Below are positions 1 to 6,448 of a stretch of DNA of 6,448 bases, piece by piece. The notes under the pieces are model-generated. The model saw only the letters and a list, made by a program, of their open reading frames with translations. It had not been told where the DNA came from and ran no database searches. A program made the position numbers and the translations under genes. Location: IMG/VR virus record IMGVR_UViG_2693429637_000008, positions 1 through 6,448 of that record. One strand, written 5' to 3'. Within the stretch, counting starts at the first letter, position 1. Every line of letters starts with the position of its first letter. This stretch comes from a virus (Duplodnaviria > Heunggongvirae > Uroviricota > Caudoviricetes).

Positions 1-50
1 TGTCAACGCCACGATGTTTGACCGTTATTTGCCATTTTCATGCCCGCTAA
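1..50. repeat. IS21-family terminal inverted repeat, istB-distal end (IRR); extent approximate
   Basis: TGTCAACGCCA...GACCGTTATTTGCCATTT pairs imperfectly with the reverse complement of 2081-2130 (TGTCAGCGCCA...GACGGTAATTCGCCATTT). Confidence 0.75.
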
Positions 51-59
51 ATACTTTCG

Positions 60-2029
<1,970 letters not shown>

Positions 2030-2080
2030 GTTGATGTCCTTTCTGGTGTGAGAACCTTAAGGAAACAACATGTTGGGTGG

Positions 2081-2130
2081 AGCGGACAATCCAAATGGCG
2101 AATTACCGTCTTATATCACTGGCGCTGACA
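2081..2130. repeat. IS21-family terminal inverted repeat, istA-proximal end (IRL); extent approximate
   Basis: Ends ...GGCGCTGACA at 2121-2130, the reverse complement of the window start with one mismatch in the first 11 nt. Confidence 0.75.
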
Positions 2131-2361
2131 CTCCCTCCGTTGTTGAGAACGGCGACGGTATGCCAGCAACTCAAGAACTCTGGTTCGTATGTTGCGCATA
2201 TCCACGCCGTTAAGCTCAATACCGTCACGGCGCATTACCTCATCCACCACACGCGCATAATTTTCAGCGGTCACGCTGTCCGGTTGCATGGCCTGTTCGT
2301 CAACCTGCTGGCTGATTCCGGCGACGCGGCGGATTAATCCCAGTATTTCGGCTTCTGTCAT
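2116..2361 (-). pseudogene. Small element gene truncated by the IS21 insertion; possibly a head-completion or head-tail connector-like protein (weak guess)
   Basis: ATG at 2361 preceded by a GGGGG Shine-Dalgarno-like run. Codons 1-77 (2131-2361) are native; the last four codons and the stop (2116-2130) lie inside the IS21 terminus. It sits directly downstream of the capsid gene. Confidence 0.5.
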
Positions 2362-2399
2362 TGTGCCCCCATCGCGCTGGTTAAGAAAACAAGCTCAGA

Positions 2400-2613
2400 T
2401 TTTTTGTAAAGAATCTGTCACGCTAAAAGATGTCGAACAAAAATTAACCACAATCATCATCTTTTTTGCATCAACTACATTAAAAACAACAGGTTACACA
2501 CATGATGATGATGACGATAAAACCACAAAAATGCGCTTTTTTCCGCGCCGACCCGCCCCGTGGACAGGCCCCCCCCACCAGGAGGACCCGCAAAAAAGGC
2601 GGCTGCTGCCGCC
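2400..2613 (-). repeat. Intergenic terminator/regulatory cassette, copy 1 (paralogue of 4918-5130)
   Basis: Shares with copy 2 the blocks TTTTTTGTAAA, TCGAACAAAAA, CGCYTTTTTCCGCG, CCGCCCCGTGGACAGGCC, CCCCCACCAGGAG and a terminal hairpin plus A-run, in the same order and spacing (plus-strand reading). Confidence 0.75.
2592..2613 (-). terminator. Rho-independent terminator downstream of the capsid gene
   Basis: Minus strand reads GGCGGC-AGCA-GCCGCC followed by TTTTTTG, 6 nt after the capsid stop codon at 2620-2622. Confidence 0.7.
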
Positions 2614-2619
2614 TTGTTC

Positions 2620-3378
2620 TCATGAAGAAATCGCTCTGACCATTCCGCGATAATCCAGAGCAGCAACGCCAGCATCAATGCGGACCTTCCAGGCCACACC
2701 GTCAACAATAAAGCCCTCCTGCTGCTCAAGGTAAGGCTCGTCATTACCGTCAAGATAAGCCACCTCAATTGTGTCCGTTCCCTGTGCTGAAAGCATGTAC
2801 CATTGCTTATCACTGACTTCATCAAGGCGGGGATCGACAATAATATCCAGTTGTTTGTGGTACGGGTTATATGAACCACTGTTTGTATCGGCACCGAAAG
2901 GCGTGGTTGAGTTAACCATTTGCAACGCTCTGTCTTCCAGAGCCGCAGGAACAAGAAGGAATTTTGGCACAATATTCAGCACCTCACCGTTTTCATCCCT
3001 CTGTGTGCGCATTGCACGGCGTGCAATGCCAAGCCCTGTAGTGCTGACTCCGTTATCAATATCATTTCCGTGTTTTTTGCTGAACAGCGGTATACCGTCA
3101 GAAAGCTTTGTGTTTCCTGTCAGCACCAGATGAACCAGATTACCCACCGTTCTGGCGGCTGCTCGCCCCATTGCCTGTGGGATAACTGTTAACTGATTCA
3201 GGTCATCGTTAATAATCGCCTGTCGGGTAATGCTGAAAATATTTCCGTAAGTTGCCAGCGCGATTGGTTCGCCACGGTCACTGGTGGTGATGTATTTATA
3301 TTCCGCGCCTTCCGGCACTTTGTTTAATGTAGAGAAGCCATTCAGGCCAACACGACGTGCCTCATGGAAGTTTGACAA
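2620..3378 (-). CDS. Major capsid protein (HK97-like), C-terminal ~250 residues; downstream frame of a split protease-capsid gene
   Basis: The 252-aa ORF has no ATG start (the ORF track begins it at a TTG) and is in the -1 frame relative to 3342-4487. Composition and length fit the body of a phage major capsid protein. It is entered from the upstream frame at the A_AAA_AAG heptamer at 3384-3390. Confidence 0.7.
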   Translation of the reverse strand: MSNFHEARRVGLNGFSTLNKVPEGAEYKYITTSDRGEPIALATYGNIFSITRQAIINDDLNQLTVIPQAMGRAAARTVGNLVHLVLTGNTKLSDGIPLFSKKHGNDIDNGVSTTGLGIARRAMRTQRDENGEVLNIVPKFLLVPAALEDRALQMVNSTTPFGADTNSGSYNPYHKQLDIIVDPRLDEVSDKQWYMLSAQGTDTIEVAYLDGNDEPYLEQQEGFIVDGVAWKVRIDAGVAALDYRGMVRAISS

Positions 3379-4487
3379 TGAACCTTTTTTCGTCCACTGG
3401 CGGAACGTTTCGCCGCTGTGTTCACGGATTTTTCAGCACCACCAGCAAGGATATAAGTAAAATCGCTGCTGCTGTGGGTGAATGCCGCGTTTACTATCTG
3501 CGAGCGTGTGCTGTAGCTGCCTGTGCTTATGCCGCGATGGGTTAATGATGCCTGTGCCATATCGAAAAGGCTCATCATGGCGTAAGGGTTGCCGCGTTCT
3601 GCCTGTTCATGTCCCAGACGCGCATTAAGCCCCTGACGCATTGCATCGCCGGTTATGTTGCCGTTATCCGTGTACGCGTAGTAAAGATTTGCGGGGGTGG
3701 TTTTGTTTGTCGGTGTCGATTCTTTACCCATAGTGAGTAAAAGGCGTTCGCGTGCATCCTCAACGCTACAGCCTGAATCAGCAAGACAACTTATAGCCAG
3801 GTCGTTATATCTTCCATTGAACGTGCCAAACAATTCACGTATCCCGTTGAGTCGTTCCTGTTCTCCGCTGCCAGTTTTCTGGCTGATCATGCTTTTAATA
3901 TTTTCCGGCATATTCGAAAAATCTCCGATTCGTTTTGATTCAATTCTGGCCATTGCTGTAATCGCGGGTATAACCTCATCTGCGAAGCCATTAGCCTTAC
4001 ACTCATTGCCATCCATCCAGGTTTCCGCCTCCATCATGGCGGTGATTTCCTGTTTGCTCCTGCCCGTTCTTCCGGCGTAGGTTTCCGCCATCGTGTCGCC
4101 CAGCTTGTCCATCAGGTCAGCAAAGCGGCGAACGTCGCCCGACACTCCGGCAGTAACACCACGGGGGGCATGTATCATCATCATCGCGTTTTCAGGCATA
4201 ACGATGTGATCGCCACACATGGCAATAAACGAGGCCATAGAAGCCGCCATGCCTTCAATGTGTACAATTTTCTTTGCCGGATGATTTTTCAGGGCGTTAT
4301 AGATAGCCAGCCCTTCAAAGATGTCGCCACCAGGTGAATGGATGCGAAGATGGATTTCAGGCACATTACCGCACGCGTTGATCTCGTCAGTAAGTGCCGA
4401 TGCTTTTACACCGTACCCGCCGATCTCGTCATAAATGCGTACATGTACAACATCAGCCATAGCCTTAATGGAAAACCATGTTTTCAT
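3342..4487 (-). CDS. ClpP/S49-like prohead protease fused to a scaffold-like linker and the N-terminal part of the major capsid protein; upstream frame of the split gene
   Basis: 381-aa ORF with AGGAG 7 nt before the ATG at 4487. The N-terminal ~190 aa have serine-protease-like motifs (IHSPGGDIFEGLAIYNAL, HIEGMAASMASFIAMCGDHIVMPENAMMMIHAP). This frame stops 13 codons after the slippery heptamer. Confidence 0.75.
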   Translation of the reverse strand: MKTWFSIKAMADVVHVRIYDEIGGYGVKASALTDEINACGNVPEIHLRIHSPGGDIFEGLAIYNALKNHPAKKIVHIEGMAASMASFIAMCGDHIVMPENAMMMIHAPRGVTAGVSGDVRRFADLMDKLGDTMAETYAGRTGRSKQEITAMMEAETWMDGNECKANGFADEVIPAITAMARIESKRIGDFSNMPENIKSMISQKTGSGEQERLNGIRELFGTFNGRYNDLAISCLADSGCSVEDARERLLLTMGKESTPTNKTTPANLYYAYTDNGNITGDAMRQGLNARLGHEQAERGNPYAMMSLFDMAQASLTHRGISTGSYSTRSQIVNAAFTHSSSDFTYILAGGAEKSVNTAAKRSASGRKKVHCQTSMRHVVLA

Positions 4488-4711
4488 AGCCAGGCTCCTA
4501 ACGTTGCCCTGTACCAGTATTCAACCGCGCTTCTCGCAATCTGCCCTTTCGTGGGTACTGGCATTCCAGGGTGATGACTTTTAATGAACTGCTGATAGCG
4601 TTCGAGCTTCTCCATAGTTCCGGCGTCTATGTGCACTGTTGCACTTTTATCCGGTTTTCTGCTGTTGTTCTCTGGCATAAGTCTGCCTCCGTTATGATTA
4701 ACGGGCATCAT
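4484..4711 (-). CDS. Small ribbon-helix-helix-like DNA-binding protein (putative regulator); true start probably the ATG at 4678
   Basis: GGAGG (plus-strand CCTCC at 4686-4690) lies 7 nt before the internal ATG at 4678, giving a 64-aa product. Predicted strand-helix-helix pattern (ATVHID / MEKLERYQQFIKS / TKGQIARSAVEYWYR). Its stop overlaps the protease start (ATGA at 4484-4487). Confidence 0.6.
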   Translation of the reverse strand: MMPVNHNGGRLMPENNSRKPDKSATVHIDAGTMEKLERYQQFIKSHHPGMPVPTKGQIARSAVEYWYRATLGAWL

Positions 4712-4859
4712 TATTGATCGATAAAACTGGTAAATAAATCATTTTCTATCTAAAAATCAGATTATGTGTTTTCTGATTTTTGTCATACCAGCAAAAGAAT
4801 TGACTAATTATTGCCACGCCAGCACAATTAAGACTCATCATTTCGGTAGTGGCAGTATC

Positions 4860-4876
4860 CTTTGTCGCTGACAAAG
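4860..4876. promoter_or_regulatory. Perfect 7-bp inverted repeat with 3-bp spacer, CTTTGTC-gct-GACAAAG; candidate operator or hairpin
   Basis: Exact dyad symmetry seen in the sequence, located in the leader upstream of the RHH-capsid operon. Confidence 0.4.
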
Positions 4877-4910
4877 CGCCTCCGGTGGCACCATCGGGGC
4901 GCTTTTTTTT
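4876..4910 (+). terminator. GC stem-loop followed by T8 on the plus strand; terminator-like, possibly bidirectional attenuator
   Basis: GCGCC (4876-4880) pairs with GGCGC (4898-4902), followed by TTTTTTTT (4903-4910). On the minus strand the same stem is followed only by a weak TTTGTC. No plus-strand protein gene ends here. Confidence 0.45.
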
Positions 4911-4917
4911 GCGCCTG

Positions 4918-5130
4918 TTTTTTGTAAATGCTTTCGGGAACGTTCCGGCGTCGAACAAAAAACAACCTAATTCGACACTAAAAATTTTTATTTTGCCATA
5001 TATCAATAACTTAAACTGGTGGTGATGGTGACATAAAAATCAAAAAATACGCCTTTTTCCGCGAACCGCCCGCCCCGTGGACAGGCCACCCCCACCAGGA
5101 GTACCTACAAAAAAGCCGGATTGCTCCGGC
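4918..5130 (-). repeat. Intergenic terminator/regulatory cassette, copy 2 (paralogue of 2400-2613)
   Basis: Same ordered conserved blocks as copy 1. Also contains a match to the IHF-site consensus as I recall it (TATCAATAACTTA, 5001-5013). Confidence 0.75.
5108..5130 (-). terminator. Rho-independent terminator downstream of the SSB-like gene
   Basis: Minus strand reads GCCGGA-GCAA-TCCGGC followed by TTTTTTG, 17 nt after the stop at 5147-5149. The stem differs from the copy-1 terminator by compensatory changes. Confidence 0.7.
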
Positions 5131-5146
5131 TTCTGTCACTCGTTGC

Positions 5147-5569
5147 TTAAAACGGTATGTTATCCCCGTACGGATCATCATTCCCCGCCTGTTGTTTGGC
5201 CCTGTTCAGTGCATCAGTGGCCTGCCCCTGTTGGCCTTTTTTACCGCCCGGTCGCGCCGTTCTGGCACTGATTACACTGTCTGCGATAACCTGCCAGCCC
5301 TGCCGCGTTTCTCCGTTCTGGCCTGTCCACTGGCTTACCTGCATGTTACCCGCCACGCTCACCAGCTCGCCTTTCTGGTGCTTTGCCAGTGCGTCAGCCT
5401 GTCTGCCAAACGCCAGGACGGATAACCATATCGTCGCCGTTCCGTCATCTGCCTGGCTGCACGGCAGGGGAACCGCCATACTCGCCATCGTCATTTGCGT
5501 ACCCTTGCTGGTGGTCTTTAACTGCGGGTCAGCCACCAGCCGCCCGTAAGCCGCTATCTGTGCTGTCAT
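5147..5569 (-). CDS. Short single-stranded-DNA-binding (SSB)-like OB-fold protein with a C-terminal ...DNIPF tail
   Basis: 140-aa ORF with GGAGAG 8 nt upstream. The N-terminal ~100 aa follow the bacterial SSB OB-fold pattern (GRLVADPQLKTT..., WLSVLAFGRQADALAKH, QKGELVSVAG). A Gly/Gln-rich linker leads to a C-terminal ...GNDDPYGDNIPF, resembling the SSB acidic IPF tip. Its ATG overlaps the upstream stop (ATGA at 5566-5569). Confidence 0.7.
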   Translation of the reverse strand: MTAQIAAYGRLVADPQLKTTSKGTQMTMASMAVPLPCSQADDGTATIWLSVLAFGRQADALAKHQKGELVSVAGNMQVSQWTGQNGETRQGWQVIADSVISARTARPGGKKGQQGQATDALNRAKQQAGNDDPYGDNIPF

Positions 5570-5811
5570 GCTGTCTGCTCTCCGGTTTTAACGTTGATGG
5601 TTGTCACCTGTTCCGCTTCGGCAATCTCCCGTTCTGTCAGCGTGGCAAAGTTTGCCGCCGTCGTGGTCATGAATGCGCTTATCAGTTCGGGATGTGCTTT
5701 CGCGTATCCTTCCCCGGCGTTGCGGTCGATGATTTTTATCGCCACCCTCAGCCAGTGTTCTGTCAAATCAAGGGCGTGAGATTGTGGTTTTTTGGCGTGC
5801 TTCGTTGTCAC
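5566..5811 (-). CDS. Hypothetical 81-aa protein, first gene of the SSB operon
   Basis: GTG start at 5811 with GAGG 8 nt upstream; translationally coupled to the SSB-like gene. No recognisable motif. Confidence 0.5.
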   Translation of the reverse strand: MTTKHAKKPQSHALDLTEHWLRVAIKIIDRNAGEGYAKAHPELISAFMTTTAANFATLTEREIAEAEQVTTINVKTGEQTA

Positions 5812-5855
5812 AGGCTTTACCTCACAGCAATAAAATAAAATTTTTGCATTTTAAC

Positions 5856-6086
5856 CCTTCACCTGTTCACCTTTTGCAATTTTCCCTTTTTATTCATGAT
5901 GTTAATGGGTTAACAGTTTCACAAAAACTATTCACCAACTGTTCACCACTGTTCACCCTTAAAGCTCAATAAAGAATCAAAAAGGTGAACAGTGAATAGT
6001 TTGGTGAACAGTTCATAAATAACTGTTCACCCTATAATATACTGATATAAAAGACATTTATTGCAGGGTGAACAGTGGTGAACAGT
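5856..6086. repeat. Iteron array: putative replication origin of P4 alpha-protein type
   Basis: Direct copies of (AC)TGTTCACC at 5864, 5940, 5950 and 6024, with variants CCTTCACC at 5856 and TATTCACC at 5929. Inverted copies GGTGAACA(GT) at 5984, 6003, 6067 and 6077. Interspersed AT-rich tracts and a perfect TATAAT at 6033-6038. Confidence 0.75.
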
Positions 6087-6114
6087 TATTCCATAAGTTT
6101 AATTTTTTCCATCG

Positions 6115-6411
6115 TCATTTGTGACCTATTGCACATGATGGCATCCAGTCTTCTGAATCCTCTGTCAGGGTCACATTTGAACGCAAACCGTGCTTCGTTT
6201 TCCGTTTCATATACTCCCTGCCATATTCCGCCATTGCCCCCGGCATATCTTTACCGAAGCGCGTCAGTGTTACAGGTTTACCGAATCCGTGTGCCCTCAT
6301 ATATGCCAGATAGGCGTGATAAAGATACCTGCGCGGACTGAACGGAATAATTTCGGCATTACCCACTAACAGACCATCACACATTACCGACGACATGAGG
6401 TGTACTGGCAA
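6115..6411 (-). CDS. Hypothetical 98-aa protein upstream of the iterons (possibly replication-associated); start uncertain (TTG at 6411 or ATG at 6396)
   Basis: Open frame with protein-like composition, but no convincing Shine-Dalgarno sequence. An in-frame TAG lies at 6421-6423, and other minus-strand frames are open right to the window edge. Confidence 0.35.
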   Translation of the reverse strand: MPVHLMSSVMCDGLLVGNAEIIPFSPRRYLYHAYLAYMRAHGFGKPVTLTRFGKDMPGAMAEYGREYMKRKTKHGLRSNVTLTEDSEDWMPSCAIGHK

Positions 6412-6448
6412 TAGCGGACACTACCATTTGTTCTTTTTTTAAGCAGCC

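What the first reader, a model, noticed from the sequence alone, without database searches (positions are those of the whole stretch)
5147..5569. Minimal SSB-like protein with a divergent IPF C-terminal tip
The ORF keeps an SSB-like OB-fold core and a flexible Gly/Gln-rich linker, but ends in ...GNDDPYGDNIPF rather than the usual D-rich DDDIPF-type tip. The tip is what recruits host SSB partner proteins, so a variant tail on a mobile element may retarget or compete for those partners during element replication. It is co-transcribed with an 81-aa protein of unknown function directly downstream of the iteron origin.
Basis: partly seen in the sequence, partly recalled or inferred. Interest (0 to 1): 0.45.

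Follow-up and report, generated by a model that had tools for sequence, protein, structure and literature searches.

The report
Ordinary satellite-island SSB gene
The ORF is a genuine single-stranded-DNA-binding protein gene that belongs to the replication module of a very common, already described E. coli phage-satellite island, and its slightly less acidic tail is a normal polymorphism of that family, not a special feature.

Summary
Window 5147-5569 (-) encodes a 140-aa protein that passes the curated SSB thresholds (Pfam PF00436, TIGR00621). It is predicted to have an OB fold that matches only solved bacterial SSBs, followed by a disordered linker and the tail ...DDPYGDNIPF. It overlaps an 81-aa ORF by 4 nt and lies just downstream of eight exact TGTTCACC iterons.

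The gene is not novel. The orf81-ssb pair occurs in 1753 of 5426 complete E. coli genomes, where RefSeq already names the protein SSB. It also sits in the same position (primase, ori, small ORF, SSB) in EcCICFT073, the experimentally studied prototype Gram-negative PICI. That copy is 72% identical and its tail ends DDIPF. A published survey already lists SSB among PICI replication genes.

The tail keeps the binding anchor: aromatic -7, Asp -5, Ile-Pro-Phe. Position -4, where the N sits, varies freely within the family (N/G/D/E/S), which argues against retargeting. The hexapeptide is nevertheless at the low-acid end of its clade.

The island in this window is decayed: IS600 truncates the primase, a 13-bp deletion breaks the capsid gene, and IS21 is inserted. 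The most likely role is a replication accessory that recruits host replisome partners. This has not been tested experimentally.

The parts
5147..5569 (-). ssb: 140-aa single-stranded-DNA-binding protein. OB core is residues 1-103, disordered linker 104-128, tip DDPYGDNIPF.
5566..5811 (-). orf81: conserved small protein (phrog_1231) of unknown function, GTG start, with a 4-nt ATGA overlap onto ssb. Predicted two-helix hairpin.
5864..6084 (.). Replication origin region: eight exact and two near-exact TGTTCACC iterons in both orientations, flanking AT-rich stretches. The octamer is the same as the P4 'ori type 1 repeat'.
6115..6399 (-). 3' remnant of the Pri-Rep (P4 alpha-type primase/helicase) gene. 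It encodes the C-terminal domain (51% identical to P4 alpha residues 690-771) and is cut upstream by an IS600 end.
5109..5132 (-). Intrinsic terminator after ssb: stem GCCGGA/TCCGGC, loop GCAA, followed by a T6 run.
   Evidence: dG -19.8 kcal/mol, z = -2.76; read directly from the sequence
4990..5108 (-). cos-type packaging site, copy 1. It has a cosQ-like GGTACTCC/GGGTCCT box and a cosN-like ACGGGGCGGGCGGTTCGCGG at 5059-5078. Its cosB-side is shared with phages 1720a-02 and mEp460.
2468..2600 (-). cos-type site, copy 2, after the capsid gene (71% identical to copy 1 over 129 nt). Its cosB-side differs from copy 1.
4484..4711 (-). orf75 (phrog_4934, unknown function). It abuts the start of the protease-capsid gene.
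2620..4487 (-). ClpP-like prohead protease / major capsid protein fusion gene. It is a pseudogene here, with a 13-bp deletion near 3424 relative to the intact RM10410 gene.
2137..2361 (-). Last island gene (phrog_1561). Its 3' end is replaced by the IS21-family insertion.
1..2136 (-). IS21-family element (istA 857-2029, istB 60-860) inserted at the island's distal end.
6400..6448 (.). End of an IS600 (IS3-family) copy that truncates the Pri-Rep gene.

Best explanation
The ORF is the island-encoded SSB of a Gram-negative phage-inducible chromosomal island (PICI) of the EcCICFT073 type. This island carries a P4-alpha-type Pri-Rep allele with TGTTCACC iterons.

Shown: it is a bona fide SSB-family OB-fold protein. 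It is under purifying selection. It is always placed, together with orf81, directly after pri-rep and the ori. It has a disordered linker and a C-terminal tip that keeps the SSB-Ct anchor (aromatic -7, Asp -5, Ile-Pro-Phe-COOH).

Inferred: the helper phage induces the island, and Pri-Rep then binds the iterons, melts the AT-rich region and unwinds and primes the DNA. The island SSB, made from the same leftward transcript, coats the exposed single strands. Through its IPF tip it hands them to host SSB-interacting proteins, above all the chi subunit of the Pol III clamp loader. This supplements a host SSB pool that is being drained by simultaneous helper and island replication. The Asn at -4 is a neutral or nearly neutral polymorphism.

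In this particular window the island is dead: pri-rep is cut by IS600, the capsid gene is frameshifted and IS21 is inserted. This copy of ssb is therefore an intact but stranded gene.
For: SSB identity.

DNA-contact aromatics: the BLASTP alignment places W48 and W81 opposite, and F54 adjacent to, the E. coli ssDNA-contact residues W54, F60 and W88. All three are invariant in the family.

Purifying selection: dN/dS 0.055-0.105.

Conserved module: in E. coli RM10410 and in EcCICFT073 the order is primase, ori, small ORF, SSB, with the same 4-nt overlap. SSB is 72% and orf81 88% identical to the EcCICFT073 proteins. The Pri-Rep C-terminus is only 35% identical and the iterons differ. The orf81-ssb pair is therefore kept across replicon alleles.

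Abundance: the pair is in 1753 of 5426 complete E. coli genomes, almost all chromosomal.

Literature: PMC10111431 places 'Primase, SSB and DUF5906' genes, which colocalize with mapped origins, in the PICI Replication category. [quoted passage not shown]

Tip: the anchor is conserved. PMC10164576 gives the defining contacts of SSB-Ct pockets as the C-terminal Phe, its alpha-carboxylate, and Asp side chains on a basic ridge.
Against: No experiment on any PICI SSB was found. The two EcCICFT073 papers read here never mention SSB, and the only two papers holding both 'EcCICFT073' and 'SSB', a preprint and its published version, are bioinformatic.

From memory, P4 replicates using host SSB, so an element-encoded SSB is not obviously required.

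The tip has only one acidic residue at -6..-4, which is rare in the clade (2 of 39) and could weaken binding to host partners.

The E. coli W40 and His55 equivalents are absent, and the oligomeric state is unknown.

No sigma-70-like promoter was detected on the minus strand between the iterons and orf81. In this decayed copy the upstream operon is severed by IS600, so expression here is doubtful.
Confidence: 0.68

Rival explanations
1. Competitor or decoy. The low-acid IPF tip gives the island SSB an altered partner spectrum. It would then sequester or redirect host SSB-interacting proteins, or exclude host or helper SSB from ssDNA, contributing to interference with helper-phage replication or favouring the island's own Pri-Rep.
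For: The hexapeptide has 1 acidic residue, against 2-3 in 37 of 39 related representatives. PICIs are known to interfere with their helpers. The lineage is distant from host SSB (25% identity; E. coli-type NCBIfam model 24.6 bits against a cut-off of 260). It is also distant from typical enterobacterial plasmid SSBs (only 51 plasmid records matched).
Against: Position -4 is polymorphic within the family, including the canonical DDIPF in EcCICFT073. That is the opposite of what a selected new specificity would show. The anchor residues are the canonical ones. The known EcCICFT073 interference maps to Rpp and packaging, not to replication. There is no PADLOC hit.
Confidence: 0.12
2. Dispensable passenger or stranded remnant. 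The SSB is redundant with host SSB and is retained mainly by linkage in a compact operon. In this window it has no role, because the island can no longer replicate.
For: The island in the window is decayed: IS600 truncates pri-rep, a 13-bp deletion breaks the protease-capsid gene, and IS21 truncates the last gene. From memory, P4 with the same replicon type works with host SSB. The EcCICFT073 capsid genes were shown to be dispensable for transfer, so not every conserved PICI gene is needed.
Against: There is strong purifying selection across the family. The module is conserved across different Pri-Rep and iteron alleles. The tip anchor is invariant. None of this would persist in a neutral passenger.
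Confidence: 0.15
3. Immune-related role. The SSB (with orf81) acts as an anti-defence factor, or shields island ssDNA from host systems that sense foreign SSB or ssDNA.
For: Only circumstantial: satellites often carry defence or counter-defence cargo, and orf81 has no recognisable fold or family.
Against: There are no PADLOC matches for ssb, orf81 or the neighbouring small ORFs. The genes sit in the replication zone, not in the variable accessory zones.
Confidence: 0.05

Closest known systems
SSB of the prototype Gram-negative PICI EcCICFT073 (E. coli CFT073, WP_000126698.1, 136 aa)
   Same: 72% identity over the full length. Same position (pri-rep, ori, small ORF, SSB) and the same 4-nt overlap with an 88%-identical small ORF. 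Same tip architecture, DDPYGDxIPF.
   Different: EcCICFT073 has Asp at -4 (..GDDIPF). Its linker lacks the GQQGQATDALNRAKQQ segment and has QGNQPPAG instead. Its Pri-Rep C-terminus is 35% identical, and its iterons and capsid module differ.
E. coli chromosomal SSB (PDB 1EQQ, 178 aa)
   Same: OB fold. W54, F60 and W88 equivalents are kept. It has a disordered linker and an amphipathic tip with an aromatic at -7, Asp at -5 and Ile-Pro-Phe.
   Different: Only 25% identity in the core. W40 and His55 have no equivalent. The tail after the core is 37 rather than 63 residues and is Lys/Arg-containing instead of Pro-rich. The tip is GDNIPF instead of DDDIPF. It fails the E. coli-type NCBIfam model.
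Satellite phage P4 replicon (alpha protein plus ori/crr type-1 iterons)
   Same: The Pri-Rep remnant is 51% identical to the P4 alpha C-terminal domain. The iteron octamer TGTTCACC is identical, and the iteron cluster sits immediately after the primase gene, like P4 crr.
   Different: The P4 record has no SSB and no orf81 (one search found no orf81 match in any phage record). The intact relative of this island has no annotated sid, delta or psu and instead carries a ClpP-protease/capsid fusion and lambdoid-type cos sites.
Plasmid- and phage-encoded SSB paralogues (F-plasmid Ssb, P1 Ssb; from memory, these complement E. coli ssb mutants)
   Same: An SSB carried on a mobile element, with an IPF-type tail, presumed to supplement host SSB during bursts of element DNA synthesis.
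   Different: It belongs to a different lineage. tblastn at E<=1e-5 finds relatives in only 51 of 72,556 plasmid records and in no deposited coliphage; the best phage hit is 31% identical.

Membership tests
Bacterial SSB family (Pfam PF00436 / TIGR00621) | Sequence match to the family model above the curated threshold | tested here: met
   PF00436 59.4 bits against a cut-off of 26. TIGR00621 60.5 bits against a cut-off of 53.95.
Bacterial SSB family (Pfam PF00436 / TIGR00621) | OB-fold three-dimensional structure | tested here: met
   AF2 core pLDDT 77-91. The top 50 Foldseek PDB hits are all SSBs, E down to 3e-9. This is a prediction only.
Bacterial SSB family (Pfam PF00436 / TIGR00621) | ssDNA-stacking aromatic residues (E. 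coli W40, W54, F60, W88) | tested here: met
   Three of four are present and invariant in the family (W48, F54, W81). There is no W40 equivalent.
Bacterial SSB family (Pfam PF00436 / TIGR00621) | Intrinsically disordered linker between core and tip | tested here: met
   pLDDT <50 for residues 104-140. The linker varies by indels among homologues.
Bacterial SSB family (Pfam PF00436 / TIGR00621) | C-terminal SSB-Ct anchor: ...[IL]-P-F-COOH preceded by acidic residues and an aromatic at -7 | tested here: met
   Y(-7), D(-5) and I-P-F are present. D(-5) and F(-1) are invariant and P(-2) is nearly invariant in the family. The features are defined in PMC10164576.
Bacterial SSB family (Pfam PF00436 / TIGR00621) | Three consecutive Asp immediately before IPF (the E. 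coli-type DDDIPF hexapeptide) | tested here: not met
   The hexapeptide is GDNIPF. Only 2 of 39 clade representatives have a single acidic residue at -6..-4. This is a feature of the E. coli-type tip, not of the family as a whole.
Bacterial SSB family (Pfam PF00436 / TIGR00621) | High-affinity ssDNA binding, homo-oligomer formation, and binding of host partner proteins through the tip | not testable with these tools
   This needs purified protein.
Gram-negative PICI (EcCICFT073 type) | pri-rep followed by an iteron origin with two iteron sets flanking AT-rich DNA | tested here: met
   The organisation is described in PMC6092414.
Gram-negative PICI (EcCICFT073 type) | Gene content and order homologous to the prototype downstream of pri-rep (small ORF, SSB, capsid-type late gene, last small ORF), all unidirectional | tested here: met
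Gram-negative PICI (EcCICFT073 type) | Helper-type cos site(s) carried by the island (two in the prototype) | tested here: met
   Two cos-like copies align with the EcCICFT073 cos sites and with the lysis/terminase intergenic region of phages 1720a-02 and mEp460. Function was not tested.
Gram-negative PICI (EcCICFT073 type) | Integrase and AlpA regulator at the upstream end | not testable with these tools
   The window ends in IS600 before that region. The colinear intact relative in RM10410 has both.
Gram-negative PICI (EcCICFT073 type) | Helper-phage-dependent induction, packaging and transfer | not testable with these tools
   This is experimental. This copy is in any case disrupted.
P4-like satellites | Alpha-type primase/helicase with TGTTCACC type-1 iterons | tested here: met
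P4-like satellites | Capsid-size and helper-control genes sid, delta, psu and epsilon | tested here: not met
   None are annotated in the window's ORFs or in the intact relative L001. The island is therefore not filed as P4-like.

The most novel reading that the evidence does not exclude
The conserved orf81-ssb pair is a specialised two-protein module, not a generic SSB. In this reading orf81, a helical hairpin with no known fold, would be a dedicated partner or regulator of the island SSB or of Pri-Rep. The low-acid DDP[YF]GDxIPF tip would bias recruitment towards a subset of host proteins, or towards the island's own primase-helicase, giving the satellite priority over its helper for the host replisome.
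Probability: 0.1. Interest if true: 0.45.

Novelty: already known. Interest (0 to 1): 0.12.

Why it matters
It matters little as a discovery. The gene is annotated as SSB in roughly a third of complete E. coli genomes, it is present in the model PICI, and it is already listed among PICI replication genes. The remaining open point is modest: nobody appears to have tested what the PICI SSB and its tightly coupled 81-aa partner contribute to satellite replication, or whether tip polymorphism changes partner binding. For annotating this window, the useful result is the context. It is a decayed EcCICFT073-type PICI with a P4-type replicon allele and two lambdoid cos sites, and it has been broken by IS600, IS21 and a 13-bp deletion.

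Tried and rejected
- Rfam scan of the whole window at E<=1 gave only spurious miRNA/lncRNA hits, and nothing at the 129-nt repeats.
- A full-text search for 'TGTTCACC' returned only unrelated primer hits. The P4 iteron identity was taken from the annotated P4 record instead.
- A direct pairwise local alignment of the repeat with the lambda cos junction was no better than shuffles (score 18-19, shuffle mean 18.3). The cos assignment therefore rests on the multiple alignment with the EcCICFT073 cos sites and with phages 1720a-02 and mEp460, and on their genomic position.
- My first guess at the EcCICFT073 coordinates hit the icd prophage.
- The 81-aa protein has no Pfam, NCBIfam or PADLOC family, no tblastn match in deposited phages, and no significant PDB fold match.
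- An exact search for the IS600/pri-rep junction in one-genome-per-species contigs found nothing, so the source strain is not identified. A 100%-identical partial orf81 is recorded from Shigella sonnei.
- The consensus promoter scan found no minus-strand sigma-70 site upstream of orf81, and it also missed the obvious minus-strand terminator after ssb. That terminator was confirmed by folding.
- I considered filing the island as P4-like and rejected this because sid, delta and psu are absent.
- I considered cfPICI and did not pursue it, because the intact relative shows no terminase, portal or head-tail genes.

Full report
**1. The observation**

The minus-strand ORF at 5147-5569 encodes 140 aa, exactly as quoted, ending ...GNDDPYGDNIPF. 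Several independent tests place it in the bacterial SSB family:
- Pfam PF00436: E=3.9e-16, 59.4 bits against a cut-off of 26, residues 5-99.
- NCBIfam TIGR00621: 60.5 bits against a cut-off of 53.95.
- PHROG 44 'single strand DNA binding protein': 1.2e-38.
- 25 solved SSB sequences are found by phmmer, best Thermotoga maritima 1Z9F at 3e-10.

An AlphaFold2 model built on 28 family sequences gives a five-strand, one-helix OB core. Block pLDDT is 77-91 for residues 1-103 and below 50 for residues 104-140. The 50 best Foldseek matches in the PDB are all SSBs, with TM(target) up to 0.81.

Identity to it is 25% over the core. The alignment places W48 and W81 opposite, and F54 adjacent to, the E. 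coli DNA-contact residues W54, F60 and W88, and all three are invariant in the family. W40 and His55 have no counterpart.

dN/dS is 0.055 against the E. coli RM10410 copy and 0.105 against the EcCICFT073 copy. This is a selected protein-coding gene.

**2. Surroundings**

Reading the minus strand from right to left, the window contains:
- An IS600 end at about 6400-6448.
- The C-terminal remnant of a primase/helicase gene at 6115-6399. It hits Pox_D5 and PHROG DNA primase families and is 51% identical to P4 alpha residues 690-771.
- Eight exact and two near-exact TGTTCACC iterons at 5864-6084. No exact copy occurs elsewhere in the window, and 0 of 200 shuffles reach the count. This octamer is the annotated 'ori type 1 repeat' of P4. 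In P4, as here, a cluster of it (crr) lies directly after the alpha gene.
- orf81 at 5566-5811, and then ssb, which overlaps orf81 by ATGA.
- A strong terminator hairpin with a T6 run at 5109-5132.
- A 129-nt element at 5004-5132 that recurs at 2487-2615 with 71% identity.
- orf75 at 4484-4711.
- A ClpP-like protease/major-capsid fusion gene, broken by a 13-bp deletion near 3424.
- A last small gene, truncated by an IS21-family element at 1-2136.

**3. What element this is**

The non-IS part of the window (2137-6399) is colinear, at 90-91.5% identity, with chromosomal islands in 92 complete E. coli genomes. The intact example in strain RM10410 lies between mppA and pgrR. Its gene order is integrase, HTH regulator, BRO-N, Icd-like, DUF4222, primase, 81-aa hypothetical, SSB, ClpP/capsid fusion, then two small ORFs.

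EcCICFT073 is the experimentally characterised prototype Gram-negative PICI (PMC6092414, PMC6739421). Between roxA and phoQ it has the same order: int, HTH, Icd-like, DUF4222, primase, 85-aa hypothetical, SSB (136 aa), PerC, capsid (c1499), decoration protein, and further genes.

The window's SSB is 72% identical to the EcCICFT073 SSB, and orf81 is 88% identical to its counterpart. In contrast, the Pri-Rep C-terminal domains are only 35% identical and the iterons differ. The orf81-ssb pair is therefore a conserved module that travels with different replicon-specificity alleles. This window carries the P4-type allele.

The 129-nt repeats align with the two EcCICFT073 cos sites. They also align with the cos of EcCICFT073's helper prophage, and with the lysis/terminase intergenic region of lambdoid phages 1720a-02 and mEp460 at 79-89% identity. 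GGGTCCT and ACGGGGCGG...CGCG are invariant across this alignment. EcCICFT073 is known to carry two functional cos sites.

P4-like membership fails, because no sid, delta or psu is annotated in the intact relative.

**4. The tail**

In 120 family representatives the last residues follow the pattern DDP[YF]xD[N/G/D/E/S]IPF. Counts for the last six residues are GDNIPF 55, GDGIPF 19, GDDIPF 13, EDEIPF 8, SDDIPF 6, and others. Asp -5 and Phe -1 are invariant, Pro -2 is nearly invariant, and the -7 position is always aromatic.

I also examined the wider clade: representatives at 50% identity, restricted to the 113 of at least 120 aa. Of these, 39 end in [ILVMF]PF and 69 end in F. Among the 39:
- position -5 is D in 36;
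- position -6 is D in 30;
- position -7 is F in 24;
- position -4 is the most variable (D14, E10, A6, P4 and others).

The features that define SSB-Ct docking are the buried C-terminal Phe, its alpha-carboxylate, and Asp side chains on a basic ridge. The penultimate Pro is also important, as the ssb-113 mutation shows (PMC10164576). These features are retained here.

What is somewhat unusual is Gly at -6. It leaves one acidic residue in -6..-4, which only 2 of 39 clade representatives share, with Asp-Asp displaced to -10/-9. The last ten residues carry 3 Asp, against 4 in E. coli. This could lower affinity for basic-ridge contacts, but I could not test that.

The tail after the core is 37 residues, against 63 in E. 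coli. It is Gly/Gln-containing but also basic, and it varies by indels in the family. The GQQGQATDALNRAKQQ segment, which AF2 draws as a low-confidence helix, is absent from the EcCICFT073-type proteins.

**5. Mechanism**

The best-supported reading is a replication accessory. Pri-Rep opens the iteron origin and unwinds the DNA. The co-expressed island SSB coats the single strands and, through its IPF tip, connects to host replisome and repair partners. This supplements host SSB while both helper and satellite replicate.

The identity, placement, conservation and tip anchor are shown. The role in replication and the partner binding are inferred. I found no experimental work on any PICI SSB. 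The two EcCICFT073 papers read here do not mention it. The only two papers holding both 'EcCICFT073' and 'SSB', a preprint and its published version, simply place 'Primase, SSB and DUF5906' in the replication category.

The rivals are a competitor or decoy role, a dispensable passenger, and an immune-related role. They are weighed in the rivals section. The -4 polymorphism, the purifying selection and the absence of PADLOC hits respectively count against them.

In this window the island is non-functional, so this copy is probably stranded. No minus-strand promoter was detected upstream of orf81.

**6. Novelty and verdict**

The orf81-ssb DNA is found in 1753 of 5426 complete E. coli genomes, up to 6 copies per genome, and RefSeq annotates the protein as 'single-stranded DNA-binding protein'. 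Protein clusters 97% identical to the window's SSB have over a thousand members.

The lineage is distinct from host SSB, from typical plasmid SSBs and from deposited coliphages. Even so, it is a recognised component of a described satellite family. I rate it as already known, with low interest. The one modestly open question is the function of the tightly coupled orf81, a predicted helical hairpin (pLDDT 70) with no family or fold match, and whether tip polymorphism has any functional consequence.

Noticed in passing
window 5004-5132 and 2487-2615 (minus strand), extending to about 4950 and 2432: A 129-nt direct repeat (71% identity) lies right after the ssb terminator and again right after the capsid gene. 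It aligns with the two EcCICFT073 cos sites and with the lysis/terminase intergenic region of lambdoid phages 1720a-02, CP-1639, mEp460 and several Stx phages. It has a cosQ-like GGGTCCT box and a variant cosN, ACGGGGCGGGCGG..CGCGG. Copy 1 shares the phage cosB-side (CACCATCACCACCAG..TAAGTTATTGATAT); copy 2 does not. These are likely packaging sites, and they point to mEp460/1720a-02-type helpers rather than lambda or phi80.
   Followed up: yes
window about 3424 (within 2620-4487, minus strand): The ClpP-like prohead protease/major capsid fusion gene has a 13-bp deletion relative to the intact 630-aa gene of E. coli RM10410. The deletion splits it into the two ORFs 3342-4487 and 2620-3378, making it a pseudogene.
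   Followed up: yes
window 6400-6448 and 1-2136: An IS600 end truncates the Pri-Rep gene, so only about the last 95 codons remain. An IS21-family element (istA/istB) replaces the 3' end of the last island gene (phrog_1561, 79 of 93 profile positions matched). This IS content, and a 100%-identical partial orf81 recorded from Shigella sonnei, suggest a Shigella or Shigella-like source.
   Followed up: partly
window 5566-5811 (minus strand): orf81 is more conserved between islands (88% to EcCICFT073) than the SSB it is coupled to (72%). It has an almost invariant core, GEGYAKAHPELISAFMTTAAANFATLTEREIAEAEQVTTINVK, and is predicted to be a two-helix hairpin. It has no Pfam, NCBIfam or PADLOC family and no PDB fold match. 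Its differences from the RM10410 copy (four of the five substitutions) cluster in the last residues, which overlap the ssb ribosome-binding region.
   Followed up: partly
window 5864-6084; L002 (P4) 4291-4590 and 9310-9413: The island's iteron is the exact P4 type-1 octamer TGTTCACC, and the cluster lies directly after the primase gene, as P4 crr does. EcCICFT073 uses different iterons (CTGTCTACC / GGTAGA-type). PICI replicon alleles therefore include a genuine P4-alpha specificity, although PMC6092414 describes PICI Pri-Rep proteins as only distantly related to P4 alpha.
   Followed up: partly
window 4740-4990: About 270 bp of non-coding DNA lies between cos copy 1 and orf75. It contains two overlapping plus-strand terminator-like hairpins (4880-4916) that would also fold on the minus strand, plus AT-rich runs. 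Its function is unknown; it may be a bidirectional terminator or a regulatory region for the late (capsid) genes.
   Followed up: no
window 4484-4711 (minus strand): The 75-aa ORF matches phrog_4934 over its full length (1.3e-46), and its stop overlaps the protease-capsid start. In RM10410 the RefSeq annotation calls only a 43-aa protein at this position, so the family may be under-annotated.
   Followed up: no
SSB residues 112-127 (window about 5189-5236): The linker segment GQQGQATDALNRAKQQ behaves as a presence/absence cassette among family members and alternates or combines with a QGNQPPAG cassette. AF2 draws it as a helix, but with pLDDT below 50.
   Followed up: partly
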